From assembly GCF_003018235.1 (NCBI RefSeq), contig NZ_CP027437.1: a DNA stretch of 64,000 nt. One strand, 5' to 3'. The position numbers were made by a program, and so were the translations under genes. This DNA comes from Escherichia coli (lineage in GTDB: Bacteria > Pseudomonadota > Gammaproteobacteria > Enterobacterales > Enterobacteriaceae). How positions within the stretch are numbered: the stretch's first letter is position 1; every line of letters starts with the position of its first letter. The notes under the pieces are model-generated. The model saw only the letters and a list, made by a program, of their open reading frames with translations. It searched no databases and was not told where the DNA came from. This document shows positions 15,541 to 33,161 of the stretch, one piece after another.

Positions 15541-15559
15541 GTTGCTGTTTTCGGTTCCG

Positions 15560-17191: not shown

Positions 17192-18408
17192 AGGTCGGCT
17201 TCTTCTTATTGAAATTCCCGCTGTCGTCAGAAACCTTCGTCCTCAATCAAATTACCGCGTTTATTGATATGGGCTTTGAGGTGGAGATTGTCGCGCTGCA
17301 AAAAGGCGACACCCAGAACACCCACGCGGCATGGACGAAATACAACCTTGCCGCAAGAACCCGTTGGTTACAGGACGAACCTGCGGGCAAAGTAGCGAAA
17401 CTGCGCCACCGCGCCAGCCAGACCTTACGCGGCATTCATCGTAAAAATACCTGGCAGGCGCTCAACCTCAAACGCTATGGCGCAGAGTCGCGGAACCTGA
17501 TTTTGTCTGCCATTTGCGGCCAGGTCGCAACACCATTTTATGCCGATGTCTTTATCGCTCATTTTGGCCCTGCGGGGGTAACAGCAGCAAAACTACGGGA
17601 ACTGGGTGTCATACGCGGCAAAATCGCTACTATCTTCCACGGCATTGATATCTCCAGTCGGGAAGTGCTCAACCACTACACTCCCGAATATCAGCAACTG
17701 TTCCGCCGTGGCGACCTGATGCTACCGATAAGCGATCTGTGGGCCGGAAGGCTGCAAAAAATGGGCTGCCCGAGGGAAAAAATCGCCGTATCGCGCATGG
17801 GCGTGGACATGACGCGCTTTAGCCCGCGTCCGGTGAAAGCGCCTGCAACGCCGCTGGAAATCATTTCCGTCGCACGCTTAACCGAGAAAAAAGGCCTGCA
17901 TGTGGCGATTGAAGCCTGCCGTCAGTTGAAAGAGCAGGGCGTGGCATTTCGCTATCGCATCCTCGGCATTGGCCCGTGGGAACGACGCCTGCGCACCCTC
18001 ATCGAACAATATCAACTGGAAGATGTGGTGGAGATGCCGGGCTTTAAACCGAGCCATGAAGTGAAAGCGATGCTCGACGACGCGGATGTCTTCCTCCTGC
18101 CATCGGTAACGGGCGCGGATGGCGATATGGAAGGTATTCCGGTGGCACTAATGGAAGCGATGGCGGTTGGCATTCCGGTGGTTTCCACTCTGCATAGCGG
18201 AATACCGGAACTGGTGGAGGCCGACAAATCCGGCTGGCTGGTGCCTGAGAACGATGCCCGTGCACTGGCGCAACGACTGGCGGCGTTTAGCCAATTGGAC
18301 ACCGACGAACTGGCACCGGTTGTCAAACGTGCGCGCGAAAAAGTCGAACACGATTTTAACCAGCAGGTGATTAACCGAGAACTCGCCAGCTTGTTGCAGG
18401 CTTTATAG
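17188..18408 (+). CDS. wcaL: Colanic acid glycosyltransferase WcaL (GT4)
   Basis: 406 aa GT-B ORF. Confidence 0.9.
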
Positions 18409-18418
18409 AGGAGAACGC

Positions 18419-19813
18419 ATGACATTTAAAAAACTCTCCCGACGCACCTTCCTGACGGCAAGCTCGGCGCTTGCCTTCCTCCATACGCCTTTCGCTCGCG
18501 CACTTCCCGCCCGACAAAGCGTTAACATTAACGACTACAACCCTCACGACTGGATCGCCTCATTTAAACAAGCCTTCCGCGAAGGGCAAACAGTCGTCGT
18601 GCCTGGCGGATTGGTTTGTGACAATATCAACACCGGCATCTTCATTCCTGCAGGTAAAACGTTACACATCCTTGGAAACTTGCGCGGCAACGGCAGAGGA
18701 AGATTTGTCTTACAGGACGGCAGCCAGGTGACAGGGGAGGATGGCGGCAGTATGCATAACATCACCCTGGATGTGCGTGGTTCTGATTGCACCATCAAAG
18801 GGCTGGCGATGAGCGGCTTTGGCCCAGTAACGCAGATTTATATTGGCGGCAAAAACAAACGAGTCATGCGTAACCTGACCATCGATAACCTGACCGTTAG
18901 CCACGCTAATTACGCCATCTTACGCCAGGGATTTCATAACCAGATTATCGGTGCCAACATCACCAATTGTAAGTTCAGCGACTTACAGGGTGACGCCATT
19001 GAATGGAACGTGGCAATTAACGACCGTGATATTTTGATCTCCAACCACATCATCGATCGCATCAACTGTACTAACGGCAAAATCAACTGGGGCATCGGCA
19101 TAGGCCTTGCGGGAAGCACTTACGATAATAATTACCCAGAAGATCAGGCAGTGAAAAACTTTGTCGTGGCGAATATCACGGGATCAGATTGTCGGCAACT
19201 GATCCATGTTGAAAATGGTAAACATTTTGTTATCCGTAATATCAAAGCTCGTAATATCACGCCGGATTTCAGTAAGAAAGCAGGTATTGATAACGCCACA
19301 GTTGCTATTTATGGTTGTGACAACTTTGTGATTGATAATATTGAAATGAATAATAGTGCCGGGATGTTAATCGGCTATGGGGTAATTAAAGGCAAATATC
19401 TCTCGATACCGCAAAATTTCCGAGTGAATAATATTCAACTGCATAACACCCATCTTGCTTATAAATTGCGCGGCATCCAAATCTCCGCCGGGAATGCTGT
19501 CTCCTTTGTGGCACTGACTAACATTGAGATGAAGCGTGCGTCGCTGGAGTTACACAACAAACCGCAACATCTTTTTATGCGTAATATCAATGTGATGCAG
19601 GAATCCTCAGTTGGATCAGCATTGAGCATGAACTTCGACATGCGCAAAGACGTTCGCGGCGTCTTTATGGCGAAAAAAGAAACACTGCTGTCACTTGCAA
19701 ATGTTCATGCGGTGAATGAAAGAGGGCAAAGCTCCGTCGATATCGACAGGATTAATCACCATATTGTTAATGTGGAAAAGATTAACTTTAGATTGCCGCA
19801 ACGGAGAGAGTAG
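18419..19813 (+). CDS. wcaM: Colanic acid biosynthesis protein WcaM
   Basis: 464 aa with N-terminal Tat/Sec-like signal ([13 protein letters not shown]) and beta-helix-like repeats. Confidence 0.9.
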
Positions 19814-19986
19814 ATTTGCGACCATTCCTGGAAAAATGGAGCCATACTTAGGAACAATGCTACTGCAATCCACAACGAAGCGGCGTAACATCACAAGTAA
19901 TTCAGTAATCAATTCAGGTAATTGATGCTGGCGAAAAAAATCGAACAAGCTATAATTCAGCAACCATTTTACAGGTGGATGAAATA

Positions 19987-20880
19987 ATGACGAATTTAAA
20001 AGCAGTTATTCCTGTAGCGGGTCTTGGGATGCATATGTTGCCTGCCACTAAGGCGATTCCCAAAGAGATGCTACCGATCGTCGACAAACCAATGATTCAG
20101 TACATTGTTGACGAGATTGTGGCTGCAGGGATCAAAGAAATCCTCCTGGTAACTCACGCGTCCAAGAATGCGGTCGAAAACCACTTCGACACCTCTTATG
20201 AATTAGAATCTCTCCTTGAGCAGCGCGTGAAGCGTCAACTGCTTGCGGAAGTGCAGTCCATCTGTCCACCGGGCGTGACCATTATGAACGTGCGTCAGGG
20301 CGAACCTTTAGGTTTGGGCCACTCCATTTTATGTGCACGACCTGCTATTGGTGACAACCCGTTTGTCGTGGTGCTGCCGGACGTTATTATCGATGACGCC
20401 AGTGCCGATCCGCTGCGTTACAACCTGGCTGCAATGATTGCGCGCTTTAACGAAACGGGCCGCAGCCAGGTCCTGGCAAAACGTATGCCGGGCGATCTCT
20501 CTGAATACTCCGTCATCCAGACTAAAGAACCGCTGGATCGTGAAGGCAAAGTCAGCCGCATTGTTGAATTTATCGAAAAACCGGATCAGCCGCAGACCCT
20601 GGACTCAGACATCATGGCCGTTGGTCGCTATGTCCTTTCTGCCGATATTTGGCCGGAGCTGGAACGTACTCAACCCGGTGCATGGGGACGTATACAACTG
20701 ACTGATGCCATTGCAGAACTGGCGAAAAAACAGTCCGTTGATGCAATGCTGATGACCGGCGACAGCTATGACTGCGGTAAAAAAATGGGCTATATGCAGG
20801 CGTTTGTGAAGTATGGGCTACGTAACCTGAAGGAAGGGGCGAAGTTCCGCAAAGGTATTGAGAAGTTGCTCGGGAAATAA
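19987..20880 (+). CDS. galF: UTP-glucose-1-phosphate uridylyltransferase paralogue GalF
   Basis: 297 aa from [14 protein letters not shown]; conserved landmark upstream of O-antigen loci. Confidence 0.95.
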
Positions 20881-21154
20881 TCAAGACAACAGTTTATTTG
20901 AATTGGCAATACTTCATATTAAATGGCAGGAGAAGTCTCGTGGTGCTATCGGTAGGCAGCATGACTCTACTGCCTTTTTTGTGATAAAAATCAAGCAGTA
21001 AAAAACCAATATTCTACCTTTTCTTGTAGCAAAAATCGATTTTTCCTTGTTTCTTGGTGAGATTAATACGACAATATCTGGAATGTTCTGGGGCTAAATG
21101 TGTCAAAATGTAATCGATAATTGGTAGATTGAGCCCCGCAAAAATTGGAGTGTA

Positions 21155-21193
21155 TAGTATGCTGGTAGCTGTTGAGCCAGGGGCGGTAGCGTG
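21155..21193 (+). promoter_or_regulatory. JUMPstart element with ops site (GGCGGTAGCGTG) upstream of the O-antigen operon
   Basis: gctggtagctgttgagccaggggcggtagcgtg read directly; matches the known JUMPstart/ops consensus used by RfaH. Confidence 0.85.
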
Positions 21194-21322
21194 CCTGAAT
21201 AAATTAACATTTCGGTGTTAAAATAAGGTAACGTTATGTTAAAGGCTAACTTACAACAAATATAAGACCAAATAATTGAATACGTAATTAGCATAAAAGA
21301 TTAATACAATTTCGGAGACGTC

Positions 21323-22339
21323 ATGACTATACTTGTAACAGGCGGCGCTGGTTATATTGGTTCACATACCGTTCTACAATTAATTGAGGGCGGGTATGAT
21401 GTTGTTGTGCTTGATAACCTGAGTAATTCATCCCAAGAGTCACTACATCGCGTTGGGTCTTTGGTTTCGAAAAATATTCCATTCATTAAGGCTGATATCA
21501 ACGATAAACAAAAGCTTGAAGAAGTTTTTAAAAACTACGATATTGATGCAGTGATTCATTTTGCAGGTTTAAAATCTGTTGGTGAATCAGTAAAGAAACC
21601 ACTGGAATATTACATTAATAATGTCAGTGGAACCCTTACCCTGCTTGAAGTTATGAAGCAAGCAAATGTTTACAAATTCATTTTTAGTTCGTCTGCGACT
21701 GTTTATGGTAATCATTCTCCGGTTCCCAATCTGGAGGAATATCCTATTGGAAATGCTTCATGCCCCTATGGAACTACTAAAGTCATGCTGGAGCAGGTTT
21801 TATCAGACTATGCGAAGTCAGATGATAAATTAAAAATTATTGCTCTGCGTTATTTTAATCCTACAGGTGCGCATCCTAGTGGTCTTATTGGGGAGGACCC
21901 GAACGGCATTCCAAACAATCTTGTTCCTTATATTTCTCAGGTTGCTATTGGCAAATTAGAAAAACTGTCCGTTTATGGTGGCGATTATGAAACTATTGAT
22001 GGAACAGGAGTACGCGACTTTATCCATGTGGTAGATCTTGCCGCAGGCCATGTTAGTGCTTTAAGGTATATTGATAAATTACAAGGATATGACATTTTTA
22101 ATCTTGGTACTGGCACTGGTGTATCAGTTTTACAAGTAATCGATGCCTTTGAAAAAGCAAGTAATCAGAAAGTTAATTATGAAATTGTCGCCAGACGTGA
22201 GGGCGATATAGGATCTTCTTGGGCTGATGTATCTAAAGCAGAAAGGATTTTAGGCTGGAAATCCAAGTACAATATTGAAGATATGATGGTCCATACCTGG
22301 AATTGGCAAAAACAAAACCCTAATGGCTATGGAAGTTAG
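21323..22339 (+). CDS. gne: UDP-hexose / UDP-N-acetylhexosamine 4-epimerase (GalE/Gne family)
   Basis: 338 aa; Rossmann GGAGYIGSH and SDR catalytic region; first gene after galF. Confidence 0.8.
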   Translation: MTILVTGGAGYIGSHTVLQLIEGGYDVVVLDNLSNSSQESLHRVGSLVSKNIPFIKADINDKQKLEEVFKNYDIDAVIHFAGLKSVGESVKKPLEYYINNVSGTLTLLEVMKQANVYKFIFSSSATVYGNHSPVPNLEEYPIGNASCPYGTTKVMLEQVLSDYAKSDDKLKIIALRYFNPTGAHPSGLIGEDPNGIPNNLVPYISQVAIGKLEKLSVYGGDYETIDGTGVRDFIHVVDLAAGHVSALRYIDKLQGYDIFNLGTGTGVSVLQVIDAFEKASNQKVNYEIVARREGDIGSSWADVSKAERILGWKSKYNIEDMMVHTWNWQKQNPNGYGS

Positions 22340-22372
22340 TACCTATTGATTTAATATTATAATGGCGTATCA

Positions 22373-24589
22373 ATGAATTTATTTTTCATAGTCGATAAGT
22401 TGGATTGGGCATTCGGTAGAATAGCTCAAAATATAGCAACAGAATTAAGTAGCTTTAATGTAAAAATAGTTTGCACCGATGATTTTAAAACTGTGGCAGA
22501 CTTTGCTATGCACATGGATAAAAACGTAAAAGAAAAGAGTATATTACACTTCTTTTGGCGTGATTATCTTATGGAAGTGATGAACTTCACTCAGCGGAAT
22601 CCCCAATATAAAGAAATTTTGATCAGAAATATTATCACAACGCATATTCCTGATCATCTTTTTACTTATGATGATATCGCAAACTATGAGAGAAGAATTC
22701 CTCTTATGAATTTTGTGGATGGGTATTTTGTTACATCCGGAAAATTGAAAGAGCTATATTCTGAACTGTCTGATTTTCCGCCTCCTCATAGCGTTATCTA
22801 TGATAATCCAGAAATTCCTATGAGCGAGGTAAAAAGCTATGATAATCATGATAGAAAAAAAATCGTATGGATTGGCAATAGTAAATGGGGAGAATACCTC
22901 GGTTACCAAGATTATAAAGGCCTGAATACAATAGTTTTGCCGGCTCTAGATAAATTAAAAAAATCTGGATATACATTTGATTATATTGAGTTTGATAGTT
23001 CTAAAGGCAAGACCGATCGTGAGGTAATTCTTAAAACACTTTCTGATGCAGATATTCTACTGATCAGTTCGAAATGTGAAGGTACACCATTGCCACTTCT
23101 TGAAGCAATGGCAAACAGTTGTGCTGTTGTGTCGACAGATGTTGGTATAGCAAATGAAGTATTACCTGAAAAGCAGTTACAGTATATTGTGTCTCGGGAT
23201 GCAGAGGCATTTTATTATTCGTTGAAAGGTCTTCTTGACGATCAACGCGGTCTTGAAGAGTTACAAAGAATGAATTATATAGCGTATCGTCAGCAATTTG
23301 TAGATGATAGCCTTATAGGTGACAAATGGGCATTGTTCTTCAAAGATATGTGTTCAAAATCGCAAAATGAATTTAAGAATATATTCCTTCGCGAGCAGAA
23401 AATTCCATCATTTAAAGAACGATTGATATCAAAAGCTATTTATAATCTAAGCAGACTAGCTCTTCGTTTGAATTTGATGAATACGCTAAAACAATATAGC
23501 CTGCTACGAAAAATATATTATAAGGTTGCAGGAACAACTACAAATCAAGTTGATTATGATTTGTTGGATGAATTTTATAGTAATGCAATATCAGATAAAG
23601 AAGTATTAGCATTTTACTCTGCATATTGGTCTGGTGTTGCCACATCAACAGCTAGTTTCTTTAAAGATGATAGTATCCAATATCCATATTATTCATATGA
23701 GTTCCCACAGGTTTCTAATCATGTCTATCTAAACAGATTAGCAGAAAAACTTGCTGAATCTAAAACACTAAAAAGTGTGATCATGAGCGGTGGAACACAA
23801 TTACAAATGGAACTTGCCAAAAAAATTAAGGCATTAAGTCCGAAAATAAAAATATTTTTTGCATGGCATGGTTCACCTGCTCAGTGGGTTGACTCCTCGC
23901 AATATTCAACGTTTGATGGATGGTATGAACTTTACCGAGAGCGAATTGCTGATGGGGTCATCTCGTTTAAGCCTGAGCTAGATGAAATACTCAATGCTTA
24001 CGGTATTCGTGCATTCTCAGTATCGAATTATGCTGTATCAGGCTCCTCGTTTTCTAAAAAATTAGCTGCACCTGATTCTGCCAATTTCCGCGTAGGTTTG
24101 TTCGCTGCAATGTTCAGTTGGTATAAAAATCCATTTCCTCAATTACTAGCAATTGGTTCATTAAAAGGATGTGAGCTAGTTACAAACTTGCATCTTGAAC
24201 ATAATATGAAGTGGGTTACTTCAAATATCAAGCTTACGACATTATCAGAAAATTTAAATAATAAGCGGTTTATCGAACTGCTATCTCGTTTACATGTTAT
24301 ATGCTATGTAACGAATACGGAATGTTCGCCAATGATAGCGTTGGAATCTGCAAGTGTCGGAACTCCATGCATTGTGGGGCCAGCTGGAAACATATATAAA
24401 GGTTTTCCTGAGTTAGAATTGTATTTGGTTGAAAAAGAGGTTGATAATCCAACTGCAATCAGGAATCGGTTACAATTAGTTCGTGATAATTACGAGGAAA
24501 TTACAGTTTTGCTTAATGCATTTGTTTTGGAATACAATTCCCGGCTAGAATTAATTAAAGAAAAGATGTATAAAGAGTTGAAGCAATGA
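22373..24589 (+). CDS. Two-domain glycosyltransferase (two GT-B modules), candidate O-antigen chain-extending enzyme
   Basis: 738 aa; N-terminal module with GNSKW ... EGTPLPLLEAMA motif, C-terminal module with ECSPMIALESASVGTP; low GC. Confidence 0.65.
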   Translation: MNLFFIVDKLDWAFGRIAQNIATELSSFNVKIVCTDDFKTVADFAMHMDKNVKEKSILHFFWRDYLMEVMNFTQRNPQYKEILIRNIITTHIPDHLFTYDDIANYERRIPLMNFVDGYFVTSGKLKELYSELSDFPPPHSVIYDNPEIPMSEVKSYDNHDRKKIVWIGNSKWGEYLGYQDYKGLNTIVLPALDKLKKSGYTFDYIEFDSSKGKTDREVILKTLSDADILLISSKCEGTPLPLLEAMANSCAVVSTDVGIANEVLPEKQLQYIVSRDAEAFYYSLKGLLDDQRGLEELQRMNYIAYRQQFVDDSLIGDKWALFFKDMCSKSQNEFKNIFLREQKIPSFKERLISKAIYNLSRLALRLNLMNTLKQYSLLRKIYYKVAGTTTNQVDYDLLDEFYSNAISDKEVLAFYSAYWSGVATSTASFFKDDSIQYPYYSYEFPQVSNHVYLNRLAEKLAESKTLKSVIMSGGTQLQMELAKKIKALSPKIKIFFAWHGSPAQWVDSSQYSTFDGWYELYRERIADGVISFKPELDEILNAYGIRAFSVSNYAVSGSSFSKKLAAPDSANFRVGLFAAMFSWYKNPFPQLLAIGSLKGCELVTNLHLEHNMKWVTSNIKLTTLSENLNNKRFIELLSRLHVICYVTNTECSPMIALESASVGTPCIVGPAGNIYKGFPELELYLVEKEVDNPTAIRNRLQLVRDNYEEITVLLNAFVLEYNSRLELIKEKMYKELKQ

Positions 24590-25365
24590 AAGAATCACTA
24601 ACAGATATATATTTGTCAATAAAATCGTGGCATCTTTGGACCACATTAGGTTGGTTAGAGTTAAGACAGAGATATAAAAGATCCATTGTTGGACCATTTT
24701 GGATTACACTAAGTATGGCGGTCCTTATTATTGCCTTAGGGGTGATTTATGGAGAACTATTTAAACTAGAAGTTAAAGAATATCTTCCGATGCTTGCAAT
24801 TGGTTTGGTTTTCTGGAGCTTTATTAGTGGCGTTATAAATGAAGGATGTGTTACTTTCATATCGTCCAGCTCCTTTATAAGTCAATTGCCAACTAAAAAA
24901 TTCATATATATTATGCAAATGCTATGGCGAAATTTTATGATGCTTTGCCATAATATAATAATAGTGATTGGTGTGTTGATTATATTCAACGTTTTTTCGT
25001 TGAGGAATTTCCCTCTTTTTATACTTGGCTTTATGATCGTAGCTGTTAACTTGATCTGGATTGCAACTTTGTTCGCGATGATTTCTGTACGTTTTAGAGA
25101 TTTTCCGCAAATGGTCATGAGCTTTATGCAGGTTGTCTTTTACATAACTCCAATATTATTTTCTGGAACAATGCTGGCTAAATATAGTTTACTGCTGAAG
25201 TTAAATCCATTTGCTTGGTTTATTGAGATTATTCGATCGCCTTTAGTGGGCAAAATGCCAGAGCTATACTGCTATTATAATTCCATTATCTTTGCATGCG
25301 TAGGAACAATTATCTCTCTAATTACATTTGCAAAATGTAGAAACCGCATTGCATATTGGGTGTAA
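24586..25365 (+). CDS. wzm: O-antigen ABC transporter permease
   Basis: 259 aa, six predicted TM helices, ABC-2 type; start overlaps upstream stop. Confidence 0.85.
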   Translation: MKESLTDIYLSIKSWHLWTTLGWLELRQRYKRSIVGPFWITLSMAVLIIALGVIYGELFKLEVKEYLPMLAIGLVFWSFISGVINEGCVTFISSSSFISQLPTKKFIYIMQMLWRNFMMLCHNIIIVIGVLIIFNVFSLRNFPLFILGFMIVAVNLIWIATLFAMISVRFRDFPQMVMSFMQVVFYITPILFSGTMLAKYSLLLKLNPFAWFIEIIRSPLVGKMPELYCYYNSIIFACVGTIISLITFAKCRNRIAYWV

Positions 25366-25371
25366 ATTATT

Positions 25372-26124
25372 ATGTCTCATTTGATTGACTTGAAAGATGT
25401 GGGTGTTGAATTTCCCATTTACGACGCTAAAAGTAGATCGTTTAAATCGCAGGTGGCAAATTTAACCCGTGGTGTAATTTCTTCAAAAAAAGAAAGCAGC
25501 ACAGTTACGGTTAAATCATTGGACGGTTTGACGTTTAGTCTGAAAGAAGGTGATAAACTCGGACTTATTGGAAATAATGGTGCGGGAAAATCTACGCTAC
25601 TGAAACTCTTGGCTGGTATTTATGAACCAACATCCGGCACAATTAAACGAAAGGGTAAGATAGTTCCTCTGTTGGACATCGCTCTAGGGATGGATGATGA
25701 TTCCACAGGATACCAAAATATAAAGCTACGTGGTTTATTACTAGGTATGACGAATGCAGAAATCGAGTCCAAAATAGAAGAGATCGCTTGTTTTACTGAA
25801 CTAGGTGATTATCTGAATCTACCAATTCGTGTCTACTCTACCGGCATGCGCGTGAGATTAGCATTCGCAGTATCAACTTCAGTTGATCCAGATGTACTTC
25901 TACTCGACGAAATTATTGGTACTGGCGATGCTTCCTTCTTAAATAAAGCAAAGAAAAGATTCGAGGAATTGCAGGAGAGGGCAAAGGTAGTTGTGTTGTC
26001 TTCGCATGACAATAATGTCATTCTGAAAACTTGTAATAAAGTCCTGTGGTTAGAGGGCGGTAAACCAAAGATGATTGGAGATCCGGAAGAAGTACTAAAT
26101 AAATATATGGATAGTGTGATTTAA
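25372..26124 (+). CDS. wzt: O-antigen ABC transporter ATP-binding protein (short form, no C-terminal carbohydrate-binding module)
   Basis: 250 aa; Walker A GNNGAGKST, signature YSTGMRVRLAFA, Walker B VLLLDE; protein ends shortly after the NBD. Confidence 0.85.
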   Translation: MSHLIDLKDVGVEFPIYDAKSRSFKSQVANLTRGVISSKKESSTVTVKSLDGLTFSLKEGDKLGLIGNNGAGKSTLLKLLAGIYEPTSGTIKRKGKIVPLLDIALGMDDDSTGYQNIKLRGLLLGMTNAEIESKIEEIACFTELGDYLNLPIRVYSTGMRVRLAFAVSTSVDPDVLLLDEIIGTGDASFLNKAKKRFEELQERAKVVVLSSHDNNVILKTCNKVLWLEGGKPKMIGDPEEVLNKYMDSVI

Positions 26125-26140
26125 AAAACAGGTGGTATGA

Positions 26141-27220
26141 GTGAAAATTGATTATGTCATTACAGGCATGAATGTCGGAGGCGCGGAAATGCAGGTAGTA
26201 GAACTGCTTCTCGAGCTTAAACGGTGTGGGCATTCTGTTCGGTTAATTTCGCTTACACCACCAGTTGATTTGATCGATAGGCTAATTAGAAATAACATCC
26301 CTGTTGTTTCATTGGGGATGAAGTCCAAATTAGGTTTACCATTTGCTGCATTTAAATTAGCCAGGTTGATGAGACAGAATTCTCCAGATATTGTGCATTC
26401 GCATATGTTTCATGCCAATATCCTAGTACGTCTTGTAAGAATATTTTTGGTGGATAGTACATCTATTATTTGTACTGCGCACAGCATTCGTGAAGGTGGC
26501 AGTGCTAGAGACTGGCTTTATCGTTTGACTAATAAATTAAGTGACTTGAATACAGTCGTAAGCGATGCGGCACGGCTGCGGTTTATTAACGACAAAGTAT
26601 TTCCATCAGAGAAAACACTTACTGTTTATAATTGTATCAATATTGATCATTTTCGTATCATTGATAGACAAAGCAGGAAACGATTTCGCTGGGTAACCGT
26701 TGGGCGGCTTGTAAAAGTAAAAAATCAACTTTTGATTTTGCAAGCGATGATGAAGTTGCCACTTAGTGAACTCATCATAATTGGAGAAGGCGAGGAACGA
26801 CTCTCATTACAAACATTTATCGATCAAAATTCTCTAAGCGAGCGAGTTACTCTCTTGGGTAAAAAAGATAATGTTGTTGATTATTATCATGATTCTGATG
26901 CTTTTGTGCTGGCCTCAGACTATGAAGGATTTGCACTTGTCGTGGCCGAAGCTATGGCATGCGGATTGCCAGTTGTCGCAACAAACTGTGGTGGGCCTGC
27001 TGAAATTATTGGAAATGGACAGGATTTTGGCATAACAATTTCGGTTAATGATGTACATCACTTAACCGCTGCGATGCAACAAATTGAATCATTAGATGTT
27101 GAACAGCGTAGAGGAAGTGGCTATCGTGCTCGGAAAAGAGTCATTGAGAAATTTTCTACTAAAAAAATCGTATCTCAATGGGAAGATATCTACCTGCGCA
27201 TACAGAAAAACAGAATTTAG
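26141..27220 (+). CDS. Glycosyltransferase, GT4 family
   Basis: 359 aa; GTG start with aggtgg RBS; GT-B motif region DYEGFALVVAEAMACGLPVVAT. Confidence 0.75.
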   Translation: MKIDYVITGMNVGGAEMQVVELLLELKRCGHSVRLISLTPPVDLIDRLIRNNIPVVSLGMKSKLGLPFAAFKLARLMRQNSPDIVHSHMFHANILVRLVRIFLVDSTSIICTAHSIREGGSARDWLYRLTNKLSDLNTVVSDAARLRFINDKVFPSEKTLTVYNCINIDHFRIIDRQSRKRFRWVTVGRLVKVKNQLLILQAMMKLPLSELIIIGEGEERLSLQTFIDQNSLSERVTLLGKKDNVVDYYHDSDAFVLASDYEGFALVVAEAMACGLPVVATNCGGPAEIIGNGQDFGITISVNDVHHLTAAMQQIESLDVEQRRGSGYRARKRVIEKFSTKKIVSQWEDIYLRIQKNRI

Positions 27221-27229
27221 AATTCACCT

Positions 27230-28384
27230 ATGAAAATAGCATTAATCGGTACTACAGCAGAAAGTCTAATCCAATTCAGAAAAGAACTGATTAATTTATT
27301 ACATAAAAATGGCCATGTTGTGTATGCGTTTGCAATTGATTATGATGATGTAACAAAAGAAAAAGTTAAATCATTTGGTGCTATACCAGTACATTACTGT
27401 TTCAGTCGAACAGGGCTAAATCCATTTTCTGATATTATCAATACCTATAAATTATATAAGATTCTAAAATCACTTAAGTTGGACTTGGTATTTTCATATT
27501 TTTCAAAGCCAGCCATTTTTGGTACTTTAGCAGCAAAATTTGCAAGAATACAGAAGCGTTATGCGATGCTTGAAGGGCTTGGTTTTTTCTTTACCAATTC
27601 TGGAGGGCAGGTTTCATTAAGGAATAAATTACTAAAGAAAATATTAGTATCACTTTACAAATTAAGTTTCAGACATATTGAAAGTCTTATCTTGCTTAAT
27701 GCGGATGATAAGCGAGACCTTTTAGTTAATGCAAAAATTCAAGTCAAAAAGGTTCATATATTAGGGGGGATTGGATTAAATATGTCTGATTACCCCTACT
27801 GCCCACCGCCTGTTGATCCAGTGTCTTTCATTTTTGTCGCTAGATTTTTACAAGAAAAGGGAGTTTATGAATTTATTGAGGCTGCACAAGTAGTCAAAAA
27901 GAAATTTCCTGAAACTCATTTTTGCATGCTGGGTCATCTGGATCTCCATAATCCGGGGAGCTTAACTACAGAGCGGCTTAATGATTTGAAGTGTAATAAC
28001 ATCATTGAGTTACCTGGCCACGTTGATAACGTGCAGGAGTGGCTTGCTAAAGCGAGTGTATTTGTATTGCCTTCCTGGCGTGAAGGGTTTCCGAGGAGTA
28101 CACAGGAGGCGATGGCAATGGGACGTGCTGTCATAACCAGCGATGTGCCAGGCTGCCGAGATACAGTAGTTGATGGTGTTAATGGATTTTTGATTAAGCC
28201 ACGTTCTTCTCATGCGTTAGCGGAAAAAATGCTCTGTTTTTTACATCAACCTGAGCTAATTACCCAAATGGGGAATGCAAGTCACCAAATAGCTTTACAA
28301 CAATTTGACTCATATATAGTTAATTCAAAACTTATGAAAATACTGCGCGTAGATGATGAAAATACAAAGTCTAATGACTGTTAA
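27230..28384 (+). CDS. Glycosyltransferase, GT4 family
   Basis: 384 aa; GT-B motif region SWREGFPRSTQEAMAMGRAVITSD. Confidence 0.75.
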   Translation: MKIALIGTTAESLIQFRKELINLLHKNGHVVYAFAIDYDDVTKEKVKSFGAIPVHYCFSRTGLNPFSDIINTYKLYKILKSLKLDLVFSYFSKPAIFGTLAAKFARIQKRYAMLEGLGFFFTNSGGQVSLRNKLLKKILVSLYKLSFRHIESLILLNADDKRDLLVNAKIQVKKVHILGGIGLNMSDYPYCPPPVDPVSFIFVARFLQEKGVYEFIEAAQVVKKKFPETHFCMLGHLDLHNPGSLTTERLNDLKCNNIIELPGHVDNVQEWLAKASVFVLPSWREGFPRSTQEAMAMGRAVITSDVPGCRDTVVDGVNGFLIKPRSSHALAEKMLCFLHQPELITQMGNASHQIALQQFDSYIVNSKLMKILRVDDENTKSNDC

Positions 28385-28432
28385 ATCATACAAATAAAAC
28401 GTTATAATAAATACAATTTGGTGGGGAATATT

Positions 28433-29581
28433 ATGGAAAGATTAAATTTGAGTGAAAAACCTGCTCACTCTTTACAAGAAGCGGCTATTCATTGTGCCAG
28501 ATATGCTAATATCTTACATCTTGTTAAAGATAAAGTAGTTCTCGACATTGCCTGCGGCGAAGGATATGGCTCAGCACTATTAATGAAAGCTGGTGCTAAA
28601 CGAGTTGTGGGGGTGGACATCTCTCAAGAGTCAATTGAGCACGCAAAGAAACTTTTTGGGGGATATAATGTTGAGTTTATTGTAAGTGATGCATGTACCA
28701 TCTCAGAGCGTTATGGTGAAGATTTTTTTGATATGGTTGTTTCAATAGAGACAATAGAACACATCAATACTCCTGAAGTTTTTCTTAGTGCTATCAAAAA
28801 AACTGCTAAAGAAAATGCGATTTTCTATATAACTTGCCCTAATGATTATTGGTATTATCCAAATGATGAACAATCCAATCCGTACCATGTACGAAAATAT
28901 ACTTTTCAAGAGTTCACCGAACTTAGTACAGTGATTTTGGGAAAGAATGTTCAATGGGCATATGGTTGTTCTGCTTTTGGATTTTGTACAGTCTCAGCAA
29001 ATAATCGAGGTTTTGAAAAAATAGGTTCTTCATGGATGGAAATAAGCGATTCGGAAAATTCAATTACTGTTTTAAATACAGATATTGACGCAGTTAGTGA
29101 AAATAATTGCAGTTTTTTTGTGGGCTTATGGAATGCACCTGAAACAAATTTTAGCAATAGTACATTCCCAATAAGTATGAATGCTTATTCGCGCATGACA
29201 GAAGAGTTCGAGTCGAATGTAAGTCTGGTACTTCGTGAGGAACAGGCAGAAAATAAAAAAGCTATATCAATATTAAAACAAGATATGAAAAAGTTAACAA
29301 TGGACCTGAGAAAATCAAACCTTTTATTATTCGCATTAAAAATCGAAAATGATGCATTGCGTACTAATATTTCCGAATTGCAACAACAGCTTGCCAGGAA
29401 AATTGCGATGTATGATGAAGTAACAAATACAAATAATAATTTAGTAACTACAAATTCATCATTGATGGAAAGAGTGTCACAGATGGAAATTCCATATTAT
29501 CGATACGTAAGGCTATCCGCCCTTCTTCCGGATTTTTTGAAAAAAATGATACTTAAAATTATGCGTTTGATCAGGAAATAA
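28433..29581 (+). CDS. SAM-dependent methyltransferase with C-terminal coiled coil and amphipathic helix (WbdD-like chain terminator candidate)
   Basis: Class I MTase motif VLDIACGEGYGS; heptad-like region around residues 270-350; basic amphipathic C-terminus LPDFLKKMILKIMRLIRK; ATG 28433 with ggtgggg RBS. Confidence 0.7.
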   Translation: MERLNLSEKPAHSLQEAAIHCARYANILHLVKDKVVLDIACGEGYGSALLMKAGAKRVVGVDISQESIEHAKKLFGGYNVEFIVSDACTISERYGEDFFDMVVSIETIEHINTPEVFLSAIKKTAKENAIFYITCPNDYWYYPNDEQSNPYHVRKYTFQEFTELSTVILGKNVQWAYGCSAFGFCTVSANNRGFEKIGSSWMEISDSENSITVLNTDIDAVSENNCSFFVGLWNAPETNFSNSTFPISMNAYSRMTEEFESNVSLVLREEQAENKKAISILKQDMKKLTMDLRKSNLLLFALKIENDALRTNISELQQQLARKIAMYDEVTNTNNNLVTTNSSLMERVSQMEIPYYRYVRLSALLPDFLKKMILKIMRLIRK

Positions 29582-29583
29582 AA

Positions 29584-31665
29584 ATGTCGGCACGTTTAAA
29601 ATTATTACCAGGGGTAAAATCAACTGAATATGTGTATTCAGACCTTCATGCTTTGCTCGATTCTAATGCTGAAAGCTCGTTTGGTCCGAACATTGGTAGT
29701 GATGGTTCTAACCTAACAATAACATGTTTATCGATGAGTAGAGTTTTTCTTACTGAAAAACTTGTTAATTCTATATATCAGCATATACCTAATTTCAAAG
29801 GTGATATCCTGATTGTTGATAACGGCAGTACATTAGAAGAACTTTCAGTTTTACAAACTTTAAGTGATAGGATTCCATTACATATTAGGGTTATCGAACT
29901 TGGTAATAATTTTGGCGTAAGTGGCGGAAGAAATAAAGCGTTAGAGCATATAAAAACAGAATGGGCTATGTTTCTTGATAATGATATTTATTTTATAAAC
30001 AACCCGTTCCCGAGATTGCAAAAGGATATTTCAAAACTTGGCTGTCATTTCATCAATATGCCATTGCTTGATTCTGATGGAGAAACATTATTCGCAAATG
30101 GAGGGAATATTTTCCTCCATATTGATAATGATTCGGTGCATGTTGGTGCAGGAAGTGCATGCGTCCAGGAAAAAATAACTACATATGATGGTGAGGGCTT
30201 CCTTTCTACATTTCTCTTTGGCGGTGCGAGTGTTATTAAAATTGACTCTCTGAAAAGTTTAGGGAAGTACGATGAAAATATGTTCATTGGATTTGAGGAT
30301 ATTGATTTATCGCTTCGTCTTTACCAGTCAGGAATGAAAGTAGGTACATGTGGTGCAATATCTTTAATCCATGATCACCCCAAACCTAGTTCTAATAAAG
30401 ATAAGGATTATGAGAAAATTCGCTTCACGAAAAGTATATTAAAAGAGTCTGCGGATTATCTTGAAAATAAATGGGGAATGGTTTTCTGGTCAGCTCCAGT
30501 TGATGATTGGTTGGAAGAGAAGCAACGTAGTTTTGAACTGATAACTCAAAAAGAAAGTAACTATTCGCAAATTGATGATAATAAACAAAATGTCATTTGT
30601 GATTTTCCAGTAGCAAAACCGAGAATTGCATTGATTATTGATACTGAAAACTGGGCATTCTCAAATATAGCAAATCAAATAGTCAATCATCTGTCAGATT
30701 CGTATGATTTTACAATAATACCAACTGAAATCATTGATAATATCAGTCAGGTTATTATGATGACCAAAAATCATGATATAACTCATTTCTTCTGGCGTGA
30801 ATCGCTTAGACTTATATATGATGAATGCTATATAAACTATAACCGGGCTATTGGATTTGATGAGCTTAGTTTTAAAAAACAATACTTAGATGGAAGGATA
30901 ATAACAAGTAGTGTTTATGATCATCTATTTCTTGATGAACAAGCTATAAAGTTAAGAAAAACATTTTATAATGATTTAATAACTGCTTATACAGTTAGTT
31001 CATCAAAATTATATGATATATACTCATCAATAGCCGAGTATCCTAATCCGTCAGTTCTTGCTGAAGATGGTGTCGATTTAAAACTATTTTATCCTCTCGA
31101 TCTTGAACGCTTTGACAATATTGAGTCGAGAACATTGCGCGTAGGTTGGGCTGGTAATTCTAAATGGGCGGGAGAAGTAGAGGATTTTAAAGGTTACCAT
31201 TCTTTATTAAAGCCAGCAGTTGAGCAATTACAATCAGAAGGATTGAATATAGAGTTAGTCCTTGCTGATCGTCAGCTCGGATTTATTCCTCATGATGAAA
31301 TGGTAAATTATTATAGCCAAATTGATGTCTATGTCTGTCCTTCAAAAATTGAGGGCACACCAAACCCTGTACTCGAATCTATGGCATGTGGCGTTCCCGT
31401 GATAAGTACTGATGTCGGTGTGGTTAATGATGCGTTTGGTGATATGCAAAAAGAATGGATTTTGCCAGTTAGAAGCAAGGATGTTTTGATAGATAAACTT
31501 CGGGATTTTTATAATAGGCGTAACACAGTGGTAAAATGTTTATCTTCAGAAAATCTGCAGCAAATAAAAAAATGGGATTGGAAAGTTAAATCTGAGAACT
31601 TCCGCATTTTTTTCGACAAATTATTAGAATCTAAAAAGCACAGCAAGATAAACACTGAAATGTGA
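29584..31665 (+). CDS. Two-domain glycosyltransferase (N-terminal GT2, C-terminal GT-B module)
   Basis: 693 aa; GT2 signature DILIVDNGST ... FLDNDIYF; C-terminal module with GNSKW ... EGTPNPVLESMACGVPVISTD, paralogous to the N-terminal module of the 738 aa protein. Confidence 0.7.
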   Translation: MSARLKLLPGVKSTEYVYSDLHALLDSNAESSFGPNIGSDGSNLTITCLSMSRVFLTEKLVNSIYQHIPNFKGDILIVDNGSTLEELSVLQTLSDRIPLHIRVIELGNNFGVSGGRNKALEHIKTEWAMFLDNDIYFINNPFPRLQKDISKLGCHFINMPLLDSDGETLFANGGNIFLHIDNDSVHVGAGSACVQEKITTYDGEGFLSTFLFGGASVIKIDSLKSLGKYDENMFIGFEDIDLSLRLYQSGMKVGTCGAISLIHDHPKPSSNKDKDYEKIRFTKSILKESADYLENKWGMVFWSAPVDDWLEEKQRSFELITQKESNYSQIDDNKQNVICDFPVAKPRIALIIDTENWAFSNIANQIVNHLSDSYDFTIIPTEIIDNISQVIMMTKNHDITHFFWRESLRLIYDECYINYNRAIGFDELSFKKQYLDGRIITSSVYDHLFLDEQAIKLRKTFYNDLITAYTVSSSKLYDIYSSIAEYPNPSVLAEDGVDLKLFYPLDLERFDNIESRTLRVGWAGNSKWAGEVEDFKGYHSLLKPAVEQLQSEGLNIELVLADRQLGFIPHDEMVNYYSQIDVYVCPSKIEGTPNPVLESMACGVPVISTDVGVVNDAFGDMQKEWILPVRSKDVLIDKLRDFYNRRNTVVKCLSSENLQQIKKWDWKVKSENFRIFFDKLLESKKHSKINTEM

Positions 31666-31754
31666 TCAAAATATCATTTTAACCTTAACACAGGTTTTTT
31701 ATCATTATCGTGAGTTAATAAGATCGTAGTATCTACACCTGACAGGAGTATGTA

Positions 31755-33161
31755 ATGTCTAAGCAACAGATCGGCGTCATCGGTATGGCAGTAATGGGGC
31801 GCAACTTGGCGCTCAATATTGAAAGCCGTGGTTATACCGTTTCCGTATTCAACCGCTCCCGTGAAAAGACCGAAGAAGTCATTGCTGAGAATCCGGATAA
31901 GAAACTGGTTCCTTATTATACGGTAAAGGAGTTTGTTGAATCACTTGAAACTCCTCGTCGTATCCTGTTAATGGTGAAGGCGGGCGCGGGTACAGATGCT
32001 GTCATTGATTCACTTAAGCCGTATCTGGAAAAAGGTGACATCATCATTGATGGCGGTAATACTTTCTTCCAAGATACTATTCGCCGTAACCGGGAACTAT
32101 CTGCCGAAGGTTTTAATTTCATCGGCACCGGTGTGTCCGGTGGTGAAGAAGGGGCGTTGAAAGGCCCATCTATTATGCCTGGAGGTCAGAAAGAAGCGTA
32201 CGAGTTAGTTGCTCCAATATTGACTAAAATCGCGGCCATTGCTGAAGATGGCGAACCGTGCGTAACTTATATCGGCGCTGATGGTGCAGGCCATTACGTG
32301 AAAATGGTCCACAACGGCATTGAGTACGGCGATATGCAGTTGATTGCTGAAGCCTATTCTCTGCTAAAAGGTGGTCTTAACCTGTCAAACGAAGAGCTGG
32401 CAGACACTTTTACCAAGTGGAATGAAGGTGAGCTCAGCAGTTACCTGATCGACATTACCAAAGACATTTTCACCCAAAAAGATGAAGAGGGTAAATTCCT
32501 GATCGATGTGATCTTGGATGAAGCGGCTAACAAAGGCACTGGTAAATGGACCAGTCAGAGTTCTCTGGACTTGGGCGAACCGCTATCTCTGATTACCGAA
32601 TCTGTATTCGCTCGGTATATCTCCTCCCTGAAAGACCAACGCGTAGCAGCTTCTAAGGTCTTGACCGGACCTAAAGCTCAGCTTGCAGGTGACAAAGTAG
32701 AGTTTATTGAGAAAGTACGTCGTGCATTATATCTGGGGAAAATTGTGTCTTATGCACAAGGATTCTCACAATTGCGTGCTGCATCTGATGAATATAAGTG
32801 GGATCTGCAATACGGTGAGATCGCGAAGATTTTCCGTGCTGGCTGTATCATTCGTGCACAGTTCTTGCAGAAAATCACTGATGCTTATGCTAACAATGAT
32901 AAAATCGAGAACCTGCTCCTGGATCCCTACTTCAAGAATATTGCTGATGAATACCAGCAAGCTCTGCGTGATGTGGTAACCTATGCGGTACAAAATGGTA
33001 TTCCTGTACCGACGTTTGGCGCAGCTGTCGCTTATTATGACAGCTACCGTGCAGCGGTACTACCGGCGAACCTAATACAGGCGCAGCGCGATTATTTTGG
33101 TGCACATACCTATAAGCGTACTGATAAAGAAGGCGTATTCCATACGGAATGGTTGAATTGA
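31755..33161 (+). CDS. gnd: 6-phosphogluconate dehydrogenase (decarboxylating)
   Basis: 468 aa; [12 protein letters not shown]ossmann motif; higher GC than flanks. Confidence 0.97.

What the first reader, a model, noticed from the sequence alone, without database searches (positions are those of the whole stretch)
25372..29581. WbdD-like terminator methyltransferase paired with a short Wzt lacking a carbohydrate-binding module
The protein at 28433..29581 has the architecture of chain-length regulators in ABC-dependent O-antigen systems: catalytic domain, coiled-coil spacer, C-terminal amphipathic membrane helix. In the characterised E. coli O8/O9a systems the terminal modification is read by a C-terminal carbohydrate-binding module on Wzt. 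Here Wzt is only 250 aa and ends just after the nucleotide-binding domain. So export is either independent of the terminal modification, or the terminator-like protein has a different role such as ruler or scaffold, or recognition is handled by another component.
Basis: partly seen in the sequence, partly recalled or inferred. Interest (0 to 1): 0.55.

Follow-up and report, generated by a model that had tools for sequence, protein, structure and literature searches.

The report
E. coli O101/O162 O-antigen capping methyltransferase
This is the known E. coli O101/O162 O-antigen gene cluster: it encodes a ruler-like methyltransferase that caps the sugar chain, next to an exporter that lacks the module normally used to check for that cap, so uncapped chains are exported too.

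Summary
The window carries the classical E. coli O101/O162 O-antigen locus (99.9% identical to NCTC10973).

- **Wzt** (25372-26124, 250 aa) is a bare nucleotide-binding domain of the natively CBM-less galactan-exporter lineage.
- **Methyltransferase** (28433-29581, 382 aa) has a class I SAM domain, one roughly 100-114-residue coiled-coil helix, and a basic amphipathic C-terminal helix.
- **No CBM elsewhere.** A Wzt-CBM profile finds nothing in six frames of the whole window.

The puzzle is largely answered in print. A 2026 paper shows the methyltransferase is needed for a terminal O-methyl and for the PS2 repeat. It also shows that strains lacking the enzyme still display PS1 O-antigen, so export is not gated by the cap.

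My comparison adds three points:
- MT plus the downstream GT2+GT4 glycosyltransferase WerT form a conserved cassette. Elsewhere it sits beside CBM-bearing Wzt (15 loci) or CBM-less Wzt (12 loci).
- The WerR/Wzm/short-Wzt core exists alone in Stutzerimonas and Photobacterium.
- The cassette has been swapped between E. coli loci.

The locus therefore looks like a chimera. Verdict: already known, modest interest.

The parts
21323..22339 (+). galE/gne, a UDP-hexose 4-epimerase that supplies UDP-GalNAc
   Evidence: NCBIfam GalE 453-463 bits, above cut-off; RefSeq annotation.
22373..24589 (+). werR, a 738-aa dual GT-B (GT4-like) glycosyltransferase belonging to the PS1 core machine
   Evidence: Pfam Glycos_transf_1 at 212-306, with a weak second hit at 625-676. 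AF2 (pLDDT 86.9) shows two alpha/beta modules joined by a helical linker and no beta-sandwich. It is found with wzm and a short wzt but without MT or werT in Stutzerimonas and Photobacterium.
24586..25365 (+). wzm, the ABC exporter permease (259 aa)
   Evidence: NCBIfam galactan exporter permease 241 bits; RefSeq names it 'O89/O101/O162 family' wzm.
25372..26124 (+). wzt, the ABC exporter ATPase: 250 aa, nucleotide-binding domain only, no carbohydrate-binding module
   Evidence: Pfam finds ABC_tran only. NCBIfam galactan Wzt/RfbE 299 bits across the whole 244-position profile. Best PDB match is M. tuberculosis RfbE at 265 bits, against 157 bits for A. aeolicus Wzt.
26141..27220 (+). GT4 glycosyltransferase (359 aa)
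   Evidence: NCBIfam GT4 families align over residues 3-354, leaving no room for an extra domain.
27230..28384 (+). GT4 glycosyltransferase (384 aa)
   Evidence: NCBIfam GT4 families; RefSeq 'glycosyltransferase family 4'.
28433..29167 (+). Methyltransferase residues 1-245: class I SAM-dependent catalytic domain plus a family-specific extension
   Evidence: Pfam Methyltransf_31/11/25/23 at residues 30-154. SAM motif VLDIACGEGYG is invariant. AF2 Rossmann fold. Foldseek hits are generic class I methyltransferases.
29177..29518 (+). Methyltransferase residues 249-362: coiled-coil spacer, the putative molecular ruler
   Evidence: Single AF2 helix at 249-362. One heptad register, no Pro/Gly. Poorly conserved and variable in length among homologues. 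A 14-aa (two-heptad) indel separates it from the Onovel32 allele.
29525..29578 (+). Methyltransferase residues 365-382: basic amphipathic C-terminal helix, the putative membrane anchor or partner-docking region
   Evidence: Hydrophobic moment 0.76, net charge +5, the highest in the protein. The motif Y-x-R-Y-x-R-L...P is conserved and the tail is 26 aa in 48 of 92 homologues.
29584..31665 (+). werT, a 693-aa GT2+GT4 dual glycosyltransferase and the inferred PS2 polymerase. It starts 2 bp after the MT stop codon and its RBS lies inside MT
   Evidence: Pfam GT2 at 46-255 and GT4 at 565-648. It is the only inverting-type module in the locus. A werT-like gene lies directly downstream of MT homologues in 34 of 46 family loci. 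Junction sequence. A published werT point mutant phenocopies MT-.
31755..33161 (+). gnd, the conventional 3' boundary of the O-antigen locus

Best explanation
**What it is.** This is the classical E. coli O101/O162 ABC-transporter-dependent O-antigen locus. I read it as a chimera of two modules.

**Module 1: ungated core machine.** It comprises werR, wzm, wzt and two GT4 genes, and it builds the all-alpha PS1 repeat. It is exported by a Wzm/Wzt of the natively CBM-less galactan-exporter lineage. That exporter cannot read the chain end, so it exports chains whether or not they are capped.

**Module 2: extend-and-cap cassette.** It comprises MT and werT.
- The methyltransferase is anchored at the membrane by its basic amphipathic C-terminal helix.
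- It holds its catalytic domain about 15-17 nm away on a coiled coil.
- It works with WerT, which has one inverting GT2 and one retaining GT4 module. That matches the one beta and one alpha linkage of PS2.
- Chains captured by this complex are extended with PS2. They are O-methylated at the non-reducing end once they reach the catalytic domain.

**Expected outcome.** Competition between the ungated exporter and the cassette would give the reported bimodal LPS: short uncapped PS1 chains, and long capped PS1-PS2 chains.

**Basis of each step**
- Shown here: the domain architecture, the absence of a CBM, and the modular and comparative pattern.
- Shown in the literature: MT is required for the methyl cap and for PS2, and O-antigen is still exported without it.
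- Inferred: the physical MT-WerT complex, the ruler function of the coil, and the kinetic competition.
For: **Identity.** 99.9% identical over 10.4 kb to NCTC10973 and four other genomes; RefSeq names wzm/wzt 'O89/O101/O162 family'.

**Architecture of MT.**

**CBM-less Wzt of a distinct lineage**
-.
- The window Wzt scores only 159-197 bits against the Wzt proteins that carry CBMs next to MT homologues. It scores 265-299 bits against galactan exporters.

**No CBM elsewhere**
- A profile built from 30 Wzt CBMs finds nothing below E=1 in six-frame fragments of the whole 64-kb window or of the 13 other CBM-less Wzt loci searched (the near-identical L001 and the 12 short-Wzt family loci). Positive controls score 1e-68 to 1e-79.
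- WerR models as two GT-B modules.
- Intergenic gaps in the locus are 2-89 bp.

**Modularity**
- MT homologues with an adjacent CBM-bearing Wzt and a werT-like gene: 15 loci (Comamonas, Pseudomonas, Variovorax, Achromobacter, Bradyrhizobium and others).
- MT homologues with a CBM-less Wzt: 12 loci.
- The werR-wzm-short wzt-GT4 core occurs without MT or werT in Stutzerimonas and Photobacterium.
- A second E. coli locus shares 90-99% protein identity across galE to GT4b, but only 47% for MT and 43% for WerT, indicating a cassette swap.

**Ruler hint**
- The Onovel32 allele has exactly 14 extra residues in the coil. The paper reports a longer maximum chain length for Onovel32.
- Spacer lengths of close relatives form a ladder of 89, 96, 103, 110, 117, 124, 131 and 138 residues.

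**Literature (PMC13168486)**
- MT is required for O-methylation and for PS2.
- MT- strains show unimodal PS1-only O-antigen on LPS.
- Only part of the chains are methylated.
- A werT point mutant phenocopies MT-.

**Linkage logic.** GT2 enzymes are inverting and GT4 enzymes retaining (established CAZy knowledge).
Against: - Nothing was tested in this strain.
- The published MT- strains are natural frameshift or IS mutants without complementation. werT starts 2 bp after MT with its RBS inside MT, so loss of PS2 could be a polar or translational-coupling effect rather than loss of a protein scaffold.
- In O162-type strains all lipid-linked chains analysed were methylated, and 85% were in the O101 reference. 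This is compatible with efficient capping, but it does not by itself prove ungated export in this allele.
- WerT was not modelled. A cryptic glycan-binding surface on Wzm, Wzt or a GT cannot be excluded by sequence searches.
- The heptad-quantisation test is not significant when each distinct length is counted once (p=0.54).
- The oligomeric state of the coil is unknown. The AF2 helix has only moderate confidence (pLDDT 64-89).
- In 3 of the 12 'CBM-less' loci the Wzt lies about 5-9 kb from MT and may belong to another system.
Confidence: 0.72

Rival explanations
1. The cap is still read, but by an unrecognised component: a cryptic glycan-binding surface on Wzm/Wzt, on WerT, or on a protein encoded outside the locus. 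Under this view, export of the long PS2-containing chains is gated even though Wzt has no Wzt_C module.
For: In O162-type strains every lipid-linked chain analysed carried one methyl group. K. pneumoniae O7 shows that an Ig-like CBM can sit on a protein other than Wzt. WerT was not structurally modelled here.
Against: - No Wzt_C-like sequence occurs in any frame of the 64-kb window.
- WerR is all alpha/beta.
- WerT is fully accounted for by GT2 plus GT4.
- MT- strains and unmethylated chains reach LPS.
- The Wzt belongs to the lineage of the K. pneumoniae O2a exporter, which lacks substrate specificity.
Confidence: 0.08
2. The methyltransferase matters mainly as a scaffold, or merely as an upstream translated gene, for WerT. 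On this view the methyl group is an epitope-level decoration, as in Vibrio cholerae Ogawa or the K. pneumoniae O1b pyruvate. Chain length is set by exporter-to-synthase stoichiometry and not by the coil.
For: - In CBM-less systems, chain length is set by coupling of synthesis and export, and terminal groups can be dispensable.
- Only 13.7% of Onovel32 chains are methylated, yet a long mode exists.
- The tight MT-werT junction allows polar effects.
Against: - The coil is conserved as a feature while its length varies across a large family.
- The same MT family is paired with CBM-bearing Wzt in 15 loci, where capping is expected to be functional.
- The SAM motif is invariant.
- Methylation is confined to long chains, as expected of a distance-dependent terminator.
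Confidence: 0.17
3. The protein is an ordinary small-molecule methyltransferase (the automatic label is UbiG-like) that happens to lie in the locus.
For: The best NCBIfam hits are UbiG and BioC, far below their cut-offs. The structural neighbours are generic class I methyltransferases.
Against: - It has a 114-residue helix and an amphipathic tail.
- It is syntenic with wzm/wzt and a dual GT in dozens of taxa.
- Terminal O-methylation of the polymer depends on it.
Confidence: 0.01

Closest known systems
E. coli O101/O162 (and Onovel32/O89m) O-antigen gene cluster, as described by Iguchi 2015, Liu 2020 (PMC7685785) and Weerdenburg 2026 (PMC13168486)
   Same: It is this locus: 99.9% nucleotide identity to O101/O162-type genomes, the same gene order, and the same MT and werT.
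   Different: Relative to Onovel32: MT is 87% identical and 14 aa shorter in the coil, WerT is 90% identical and Wzt 99%. The window also has a private nonsense codon in a side-branch gene downstream of gnd.
E. coli O9a/O8 (K. pneumoniae O3/O5) WbdD-WbdA-Wzt(CBM) capped-glycan system
   Same: An N-terminal terminating enzyme, a coiled-coil spacer and a C-terminal amphipathic membrane helix. The partner is a multi-module polymerase encoded next to it. The terminal methyl group is confined to chains of sufficient length.
   Different: - No kinase domain.
- The methyltransferase domain is not orthologous (29 bits, SAM motif only).
- Wzt has no CBM, and uncapped chains are exported.
- The cassette extends a pre-existing different polymer (PS1) and does not make the whole chain.
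K. pneumoniae O2a machine with O1/O2ac add-on polymerases (WbbY/WbbZ; WbmVWX)
   Same: A CBM-less exporter of the same lineage. A hybrid glycan in which a second repeat is added to the non-reducing end of a core repeat by a dual-GT polymerase. An optional terminal group on long chains that is not needed for export.
   Different: The terminal group there is pyruvate, added by a pyruvyltransferase for which no coiled coil is described in the passages read. The add-on genes are unlinked. Loss of the capping enzyme has little effect on chain length, whereas loss of MT here removes PS2 and the long mode.
Vibrio cholerae O1 Ogawa/Inaba terminal 2-O-methyl (methyltransferase WbeT) with a CBM-less ABC exporter
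   Same: A terminal O-methyl cap, an exporter without a CBM, and methyltransferase mutants that still export O-antigen.
   Different: There the cap is described as an epitope only. To my knowledge WbeT has no coiled-coil ruler (this is from memory, not tested), and no second repeat unit depends on it.

Membership tests
E. coli O101/O162 O-antigen gene cluster | Near-identical sequence and gene order between galF and gnd, including the O89/O101/O162-family wzm/wzt | tested here: met
   99.9% over 10,401 bp to five complete genomes; identical gene order and annotation.
E. coli O101/O162 O-antigen gene cluster | Distinction between O162 and O101: intact side-branch genes between gnd and ugd (the O101 reference has an IS in the first gene) | tested here: inconclusive
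   The first gene (33302-34417) is intact, as in O162. The second gene, however, carries a private nonsense codon at codon 28. The serological phenotype cannot be predicted.
Coiled-coil glycan chain terminators of capped ABC-transporter systems (WbdD/WbbB type) | Terminating catalytic module at the end distal to the membrane anchor | tested here: met
Coiled-coil glycan chain terminators of capped ABC-transporter systems (WbdD/WbbB type) | Extended coiled coil acting as a spacer | tested here: met
   AF2 helix at 249-362, a single heptad register, no Pro/Gly, and a length-variable spacer in homologues. Ruler function itself was not tested.
Coiled-coil glycan chain terminators of capped ABC-transporter systems (WbdD/WbbB type) | C-terminal amphipathic membrane-association or polymerase-recruitment region | tested here: met
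   Residues 365-382: hydrophobic moment 0.76, charge +5, conserved motif. This is prediction only; binding was not tested.
Coiled-coil glycan chain terminators of capped ABC-transporter systems (WbdD/WbbB type) | The enzyme installs a non-reducing terminal group on the glycan | not testable with these tools
   Published: O-methylation of long chains requires an intact MT gene in O101/Onovel32 strains (PMC13168486).
Coiled-coil glycan chain terminators of capped ABC-transporter systems (WbdD/WbbB type) | Partner Wzt carries a C-terminal CBM that makes export depend on the cap | tested here: not met
   Wzt is 250 aa, ABC_tran only. There is no CBM in any frame of the window. Uncapped chains are exported according to the literature.
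WbdD protein family (sequence homology) | Homologous methyltransferase plus kinase domains | tested here: not met
   Profile against PDB: WbdD at E 6e-6, 29 bits, residues 35-113 only. WbdD is not among the top 50 structural neighbours. No kinase domain is present.
CBM-less O-antigen/galactan ABC exporters (K. pneumoniae O2a Wzt, M. tuberculosis RfbE type) | Nucleotide-binding subunit of about 245-260 aa with no C-terminal extension, and closest similarity to galactan exporters | tested here: met
   NCBIfam NF050108 at 299 bits over the whole profile (below the 400-bit equivalog cut-off, so related but not the same exporter). PDB RfbE at 265 bits.
CBM-less O-antigen/galactan ABC exporters (K. 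pneumoniae O2a Wzt, M. tuberculosis RfbE type) | Export obligatorily coupled to chain extension, with chain length set by exporter-to-synthase ratio | not testable with these tools
   Known for K. pneumoniae O2a. Not examined for O101/O162.

The most novel reading that the evidence does not exclude
'Cap without gate' may be a recurrent operating mode and not a one-off.

- The MT-WerT pair would be a portable extend-and-cap cassette that evolved in CBM-gated systems.
- It has been grafted, and later swapped between E. coli serogroups, onto a self-sufficient ungated WerR/Wzm/Wzt machine.
- In such hybrids the coiled coil sets the length only of the captured sub-population, while the exporter leaks uncapped core chains. 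That would produce bimodal LPS.
- Heptad indels, such as the 14 aa between O101/O162 and Onovel32, would tune the long mode.
- Frequent loss of the cassette (30% of clinical Onovel32 isolates) would be a cheap route to antigenic change, precisely because export does not depend on the cap.
Probability: 0.45. Interest if true: 0.5.

Novelty: already known. Interest (0 to 1): 0.33.

Why it matters
O101/O162-family O-antigens (including Onovel32/O89m) are carried by multidrug-resistant ExPEC lineages such as ST167 and are vaccine candidates. Because the exporter does not check for the cap, loss of the methyltransferase or WerT is viable. It switches the surface antigen from PS1-PS2-OMe to PS1 only, which alters serum recognition and opsonophagocytic antibody function.

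For the field, the locus is a natural example of a ruler-type terminator uncoupled from the CBM checkpoint. The reviews I could read describe that checkpoint as the usual partner of ruler-type terminators. The comparative pattern found here also gives a concrete evolutionary route and ready-made chimeras for testing how much of chain-length control comes from the ruler and how much from the export gate:
- the core machine occurs alone;
- the cassette occurs with a CBM-bearing Wzt;
- the two are fused in enterics and Alcaligenes.

Tried and rejected
- **Structural link to WbdD.** A Foldseek search of the MT model against the PDB returned only generic class I methyltransferases. A profile search found WbdD only at the SAM motif. 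I therefore dropped any claim of orthology.
- **CBM outside Wzt.** The Pfam scans I ran (Wzt, MT, WerR, WerT) and the NCBIfam scan of all eight locus proteins showed none. A purpose-built CBM profile searched in six frames found none, and the WerR AF2 model shows none.
- **Heptad quantisation of spacer length as a statistical proof of a coiled coil.** It was significant when all sequences were counted (p=2e-4) but not on distinct lengths (p=0.54). I report it only as a ladder among close relatives.
- **Key papers not held.** Mann, Kimber & Whitfield 2019 (Glycobiology) and the 2020 JBC O-antigen review could not be read. I cannot say whether they already list O101 as a terminator without a CBM.
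- **Loci without a transporter in range.** 19 of 46 family loci had no Wzt within 10 kb and are uninformative.
- **Truncation hypothesis.** I considered that the short Wzt is a recent truncation and rejected it. Its length is conserved at 247-251 aa from Plesiomonas to Alcaligenes, Stutzerimonas and Photobacterium. The NBD also belongs to a different lineage from the CBM-bearing ones.

Full report
**What is in the window.** The region between galF (19975-20880) and gnd (31755-33161) has low GC content (0.35-0.37, against about 0.52-0.55 in much of the flanking sequence). It holds eight tightly packed plus-strand genes:

| Gene | Coordinates | Product |
|---|---|---|
| galE | 21323-22339 | UDP-hexose 4-epimerase |
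| werR | 22373-24589 | 738-aa glycosyltransferase |
| wzm | 24586-25365 | ABC exporter permease |
| wzt | 25372-26124 | ABC exporter ATPase |
| GT4 | 26141-27220 | glycosyltransferase |
| GT4 | 27230-28384 | glycosyltransferase |
| MT | 28433-29581 | methyltransferase |
| werT | 29584-31665 | 693-aa glycosyltransferase |

A megablast of 21300-31700 against complete E. coli genomes finds five genomes at 99.8-99.9% identity. One is NCTC10973, where RefSeq names wzm/wzt 'O89/O101/O162 family'. A further 313 genomes match at 90-95% (the Onovel32/O89m variant). This is therefore the classical E. coli O101/O162 O-antigen locus.

**Checking the observation: Wzt.** Wzt is 250 aa. Pfam finds only ABC_tran and no Wzt_C. 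It aligns over residues 5-246 with all of the 244-position NCBIfam profile for the galactan exporter Wzt/RfbE, scoring 299 bits. That is below the 400-bit equivalog cut-off, so it is a relative and not the same exporter. Its best solved relative is the CBM-less M. tuberculosis RfbE, at 265 bits. The Aquifex Wzt scores 157 bits. The next gene starts 16 bp after the stop codon, so no CBM remnant is present.

**Checking the observation: the methyltransferase.**
- The start is ATG 28433, preceded by GGTGGGG. The MERL N-terminus is invariant in 32 homologues.
- Methyltransferase domains lie at residues 30-154.
- AlphaFold2 with a 32-sequence alignment (pLDDT 80.6) gives a Rossmann domain to about residue 240, one unbroken helix at 249-362, a break, and a final helix at 367-381. 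P366, within the break, is invariant in the alignment.
- My heptad scan finds one register from about 260 to 378, with 75% hydrophobic a/d positions and no Pro or Gly between 253 and 353.
- Residues 365-382 (LPDFLKKMILKIMRLIRK) have the largest hydrophobic moment in the protein (0.76) and a charge of +5.

**Is there a CBM anywhere else?**
- I built a profile from the C-terminal extensions of 30 Wzt proteins found next to methyltransferase homologues. The three seeds carry Pfam Wzt_C.
- I searched every stop-to-stop fragment of at least 40 aa, in six frames, across the whole 64-kb window and 13 other loci with a short Wzt. Nothing scored better than E=1. Positive controls scored 1e-68 to 1e-79.
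- WerR, the largest poorly annotated protein, models (pLDDT 86.9) as two alpha/beta GT-B modules joined by a helical linker, with no beta-sandwich.
- WerT is accounted for by a GT2 module (46-255) and a GT4 module (565-648) whose half is homologous to WerR's N-terminal module.
- Intergenic gaps are 2-89 bp.

**What the literature already shows.**
- Liu et al. proposed that the methyltransferase genes of O52, O60, O89, O97, O101 and O162 terminate the chain (PMC7685785).
- Weerdenburg et al. 2026 (PMC13168486) report that O101/O162 LPS is bimodal. Long chains are PS1 cores extended by PS2 and can carry one O-methyl group.
- In that study an intact MT gene is required for methylation.
- 30% of clinical Onovel32 isolates have frameshifts or IS insertions in MT. 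These isolates make a unimodal, PS1-only O-antigen that is still on LPS.
- The methylated fraction of chains is 100% in O162, 85% in O101 and 14% in Onovel32.
- A point mutant in the downstream GT (werT) phenocopies MT-.
- The authors propose a WbdD-like ruler in complex with a GT. The paper never mentions a CBM (0 occurrences).
- Papers from the Whitfield laboratory state that terminators are 'typically' accompanied by a CBM on Wzt, and that in all terminated OPS examples a CBM is attached to the transporter's nucleotide-binding domain.
- They also describe caps without gating on CBM-less exporters: the K. pneumoniae O1b/O2c pyruvate and the V. cholerae Ogawa methyl group.

**What comparison adds: a conserved two-gene unit.** The methyltransferase belongs to a large family (4184 hits). 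The family has a conserved 255-aa N-domain, a poorly conserved spacer of variable length, and a conserved tail. A werT-like dual GT lies directly downstream in 34 of 46 family loci. MT plus WerT is therefore a conserved two-gene unit.

**What comparison adds: both kinds of transporter partner.** Among those 46 loci:

| Transporter next to MT | Loci | Examples |
|---|---|---|
| Adjacent Wzt with a profile-confirmed CBM | 15 | Comamonas, Pseudomonas, Variovorax, Achromobacter, Bradyrhizobium |
| CBM-less Wzt | 12 | Plesiomonas, Citrobacter, another E. coli, Alcaligenes; five Firmicutes; three where the Wzt is about 5-9 kb away |
| No Wzt within 10 kb | 19 | uninformative |

**What comparison adds: the core stands alone, and the cassette moves.**
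- The werR-wzm-short wzt-GT4 core occurs without MT or werT in Stutzerimonas stutzeri and Photobacterium leiognathi.
- A second E. coli locus is 90-99% identical in galE, werR, wzm, wzt and both GT4 proteins. It is only 47% identical in MT and 43% in WerT, which indicates a cassette replacement.
- The short Wzt is not a truncated version of the CBM-bearing ones. It scores 159-197 bits against them, compared with 265-299 bits against galactan exporters.

**Mechanism I consider most likely.**
- The locus is a chimera. An ungated core machine makes and exports PS1, which has two alpha linkages and so needs retaining GT4 modules.
- An extend-and-cap cassette is added to it.
- WerT has the only inverting GT2 module in the locus, plus a retaining GT4 module. 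This matches PS2's one beta and one alpha linkage. The inference rests on CAZy stereochemistry rules and the structures quoted.
- The methyltransferase sits on the membrane through its C-terminal helix and probably recruits WerT, as WbdD recruits WbdA. It caps chains that reach its catalytic domain about 15-17 nm away (100-114 residues at 0.15 nm each).
- Because the exporter cannot read the cap, uncapped PS1 chains leak out. That would give the short mode.
- The 14-residue (two-heptad) longer coil of the Onovel32 allele goes with the longer maximum chain length reported for Onovel32. Spacer lengths in close relatives form a 7-residue ladder from 89 to 138.

These last two observations are correlations, not tests. 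The formal quantisation test fails on distinct lengths (p=0.54).

**Open weakness.** werT starts 2 bp after the MT stop codon, with its RBS inside MT. Loss of PS2 in natural MT- mutants could therefore be polar and need not reflect loss of a scaffold. No complemented or catalytically dead allele has been reported in what I could read.

**Comparison with known systems.**
- By architecture the protein works like WbdD. It is not a WbdD homologue (29 bits at the SAM motif, no kinase). The family-defining partnership with a CBM-bearing Wzt was tested and is not met.
- The transporter and the hybrid-glycan logic resemble K. pneumoniae O2a with its O1/O2ac add-ons.
- The dispensable methyl cap resembles V. 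cholerae Ogawa.

**Verdict.** The object is already known, and its central question has largely been answered experimentally. What remains mildly interesting is the explicit uncoupling of a ruler-type terminator from the CBM checkpoint and its modular evolutionary origin.

Noticed in passing
window 34439-35449 (stop codon at 34520-34522): The second gene downstream of gnd encodes an ArnC/PgfS-like membrane GT2, probably a polyprenyl-phosphate glycosyltransferase. It has an in-frame stop at codon 28 (Q28*). The gene is intact in NCTC10973. All five complete RefSeq genomes that carry this region differ from the window by one base in the 161 bp around the site. The mutation could abolish the 4-deoxy-arabino-hexose side branch, giving an O162 genotype with an O101-like phenotype through a lesion different from the IS in the O101 reference.
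   Followed up: partly
window 33302-39668: Seven genes lie between gnd and ugd:
- an FAD oxidoreductase;
- an ArnC-like GT2;
- an NAD(P) oxidoreductase;
- a sugar-phosphate isomerase/epimerase (IolO-like TIM barrel);
- an ArnF/SMR-like 118-aa membrane protein;
- a dolichyl-phosphate-hexose-transferase-like GT2;
- a 456-aa polytopic membrane protein with no family hit.

Together they look like a lipid-linked, periplasmic 'three-component' side-branch glycosylation system with on-lipid sugar tailoring (compare PMC11127046). A similar gene series (first five products of near-identical length, by Pfam; the GT2 and polytopic protein apparently fused into one 718-aa product) follows the cluster in Plesiomonas (L002).
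   Followed up: partly
window 39991-43583: No wzz (wzzB) gene lies between ugd and hisIE. IS3-family transposase remnants (41245-41748 and 42004-42639) occupy that position, as in NCTC10973. This fits an ABC-transporter O-antigen, which does not use Wzz.
   Followed up: no
L088 (NZ_CP075722.1) 16134-17324, compared with window 28433-29581: The Onovel32/O89m allele of the methyltransferase has exactly 14 extra residues (two heptads) inside the coiled coil. The Wzt proteins are 99% identical. In that genome the whole locus sits among IS26, IS903B and other IS copies in the fepA/entD-ybdK-nfsB region, not at galF-gnd. This agrees with Harris et al. 2018.
   Followed up: partly
L003 (Logan SRR3989750) 2902-13144 and 14955-21161: A third E. 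coli variant of the family keeps galE through the second GT4 at 90-99% protein identity. Its MT and WerT are only 47% and 43% identical. It also has a different gene set after gnd: a GT2, an LPG_synthase_TM protein and several unknown proteins. This may be an uncharacterised antigenic variant.
   Followed up: no
L091 (Candidatus Tisiphia endosymbiont) 10001-12301, and proteins P0156-P0164: WerR-type dual GT-B glycosyltransferases (30-35% identity, full length) occur in Rickettsiaceae endosymbionts (Tisiphia, Rickettsia). In the one locus examined (L091) there is no adjacent wzm/wzt.
   Followed up: no
L019, L026, L029, L032, L037: In Firmicutes (Paenibacillus, Lacrimispora and uncultured Bacilli), members of the same methyltransferase family sit near 242-255-aa CBM-less Wzt/TagH-like ATPases: immediately downstream of them in three loci (L019, L026, L029) and about 2-3 kb away in the other two. 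A werT-like gene is nearby in four of the five. These may be capped cell-wall glycans without an export gate in Gram-positive bacteria.
   Followed up: no
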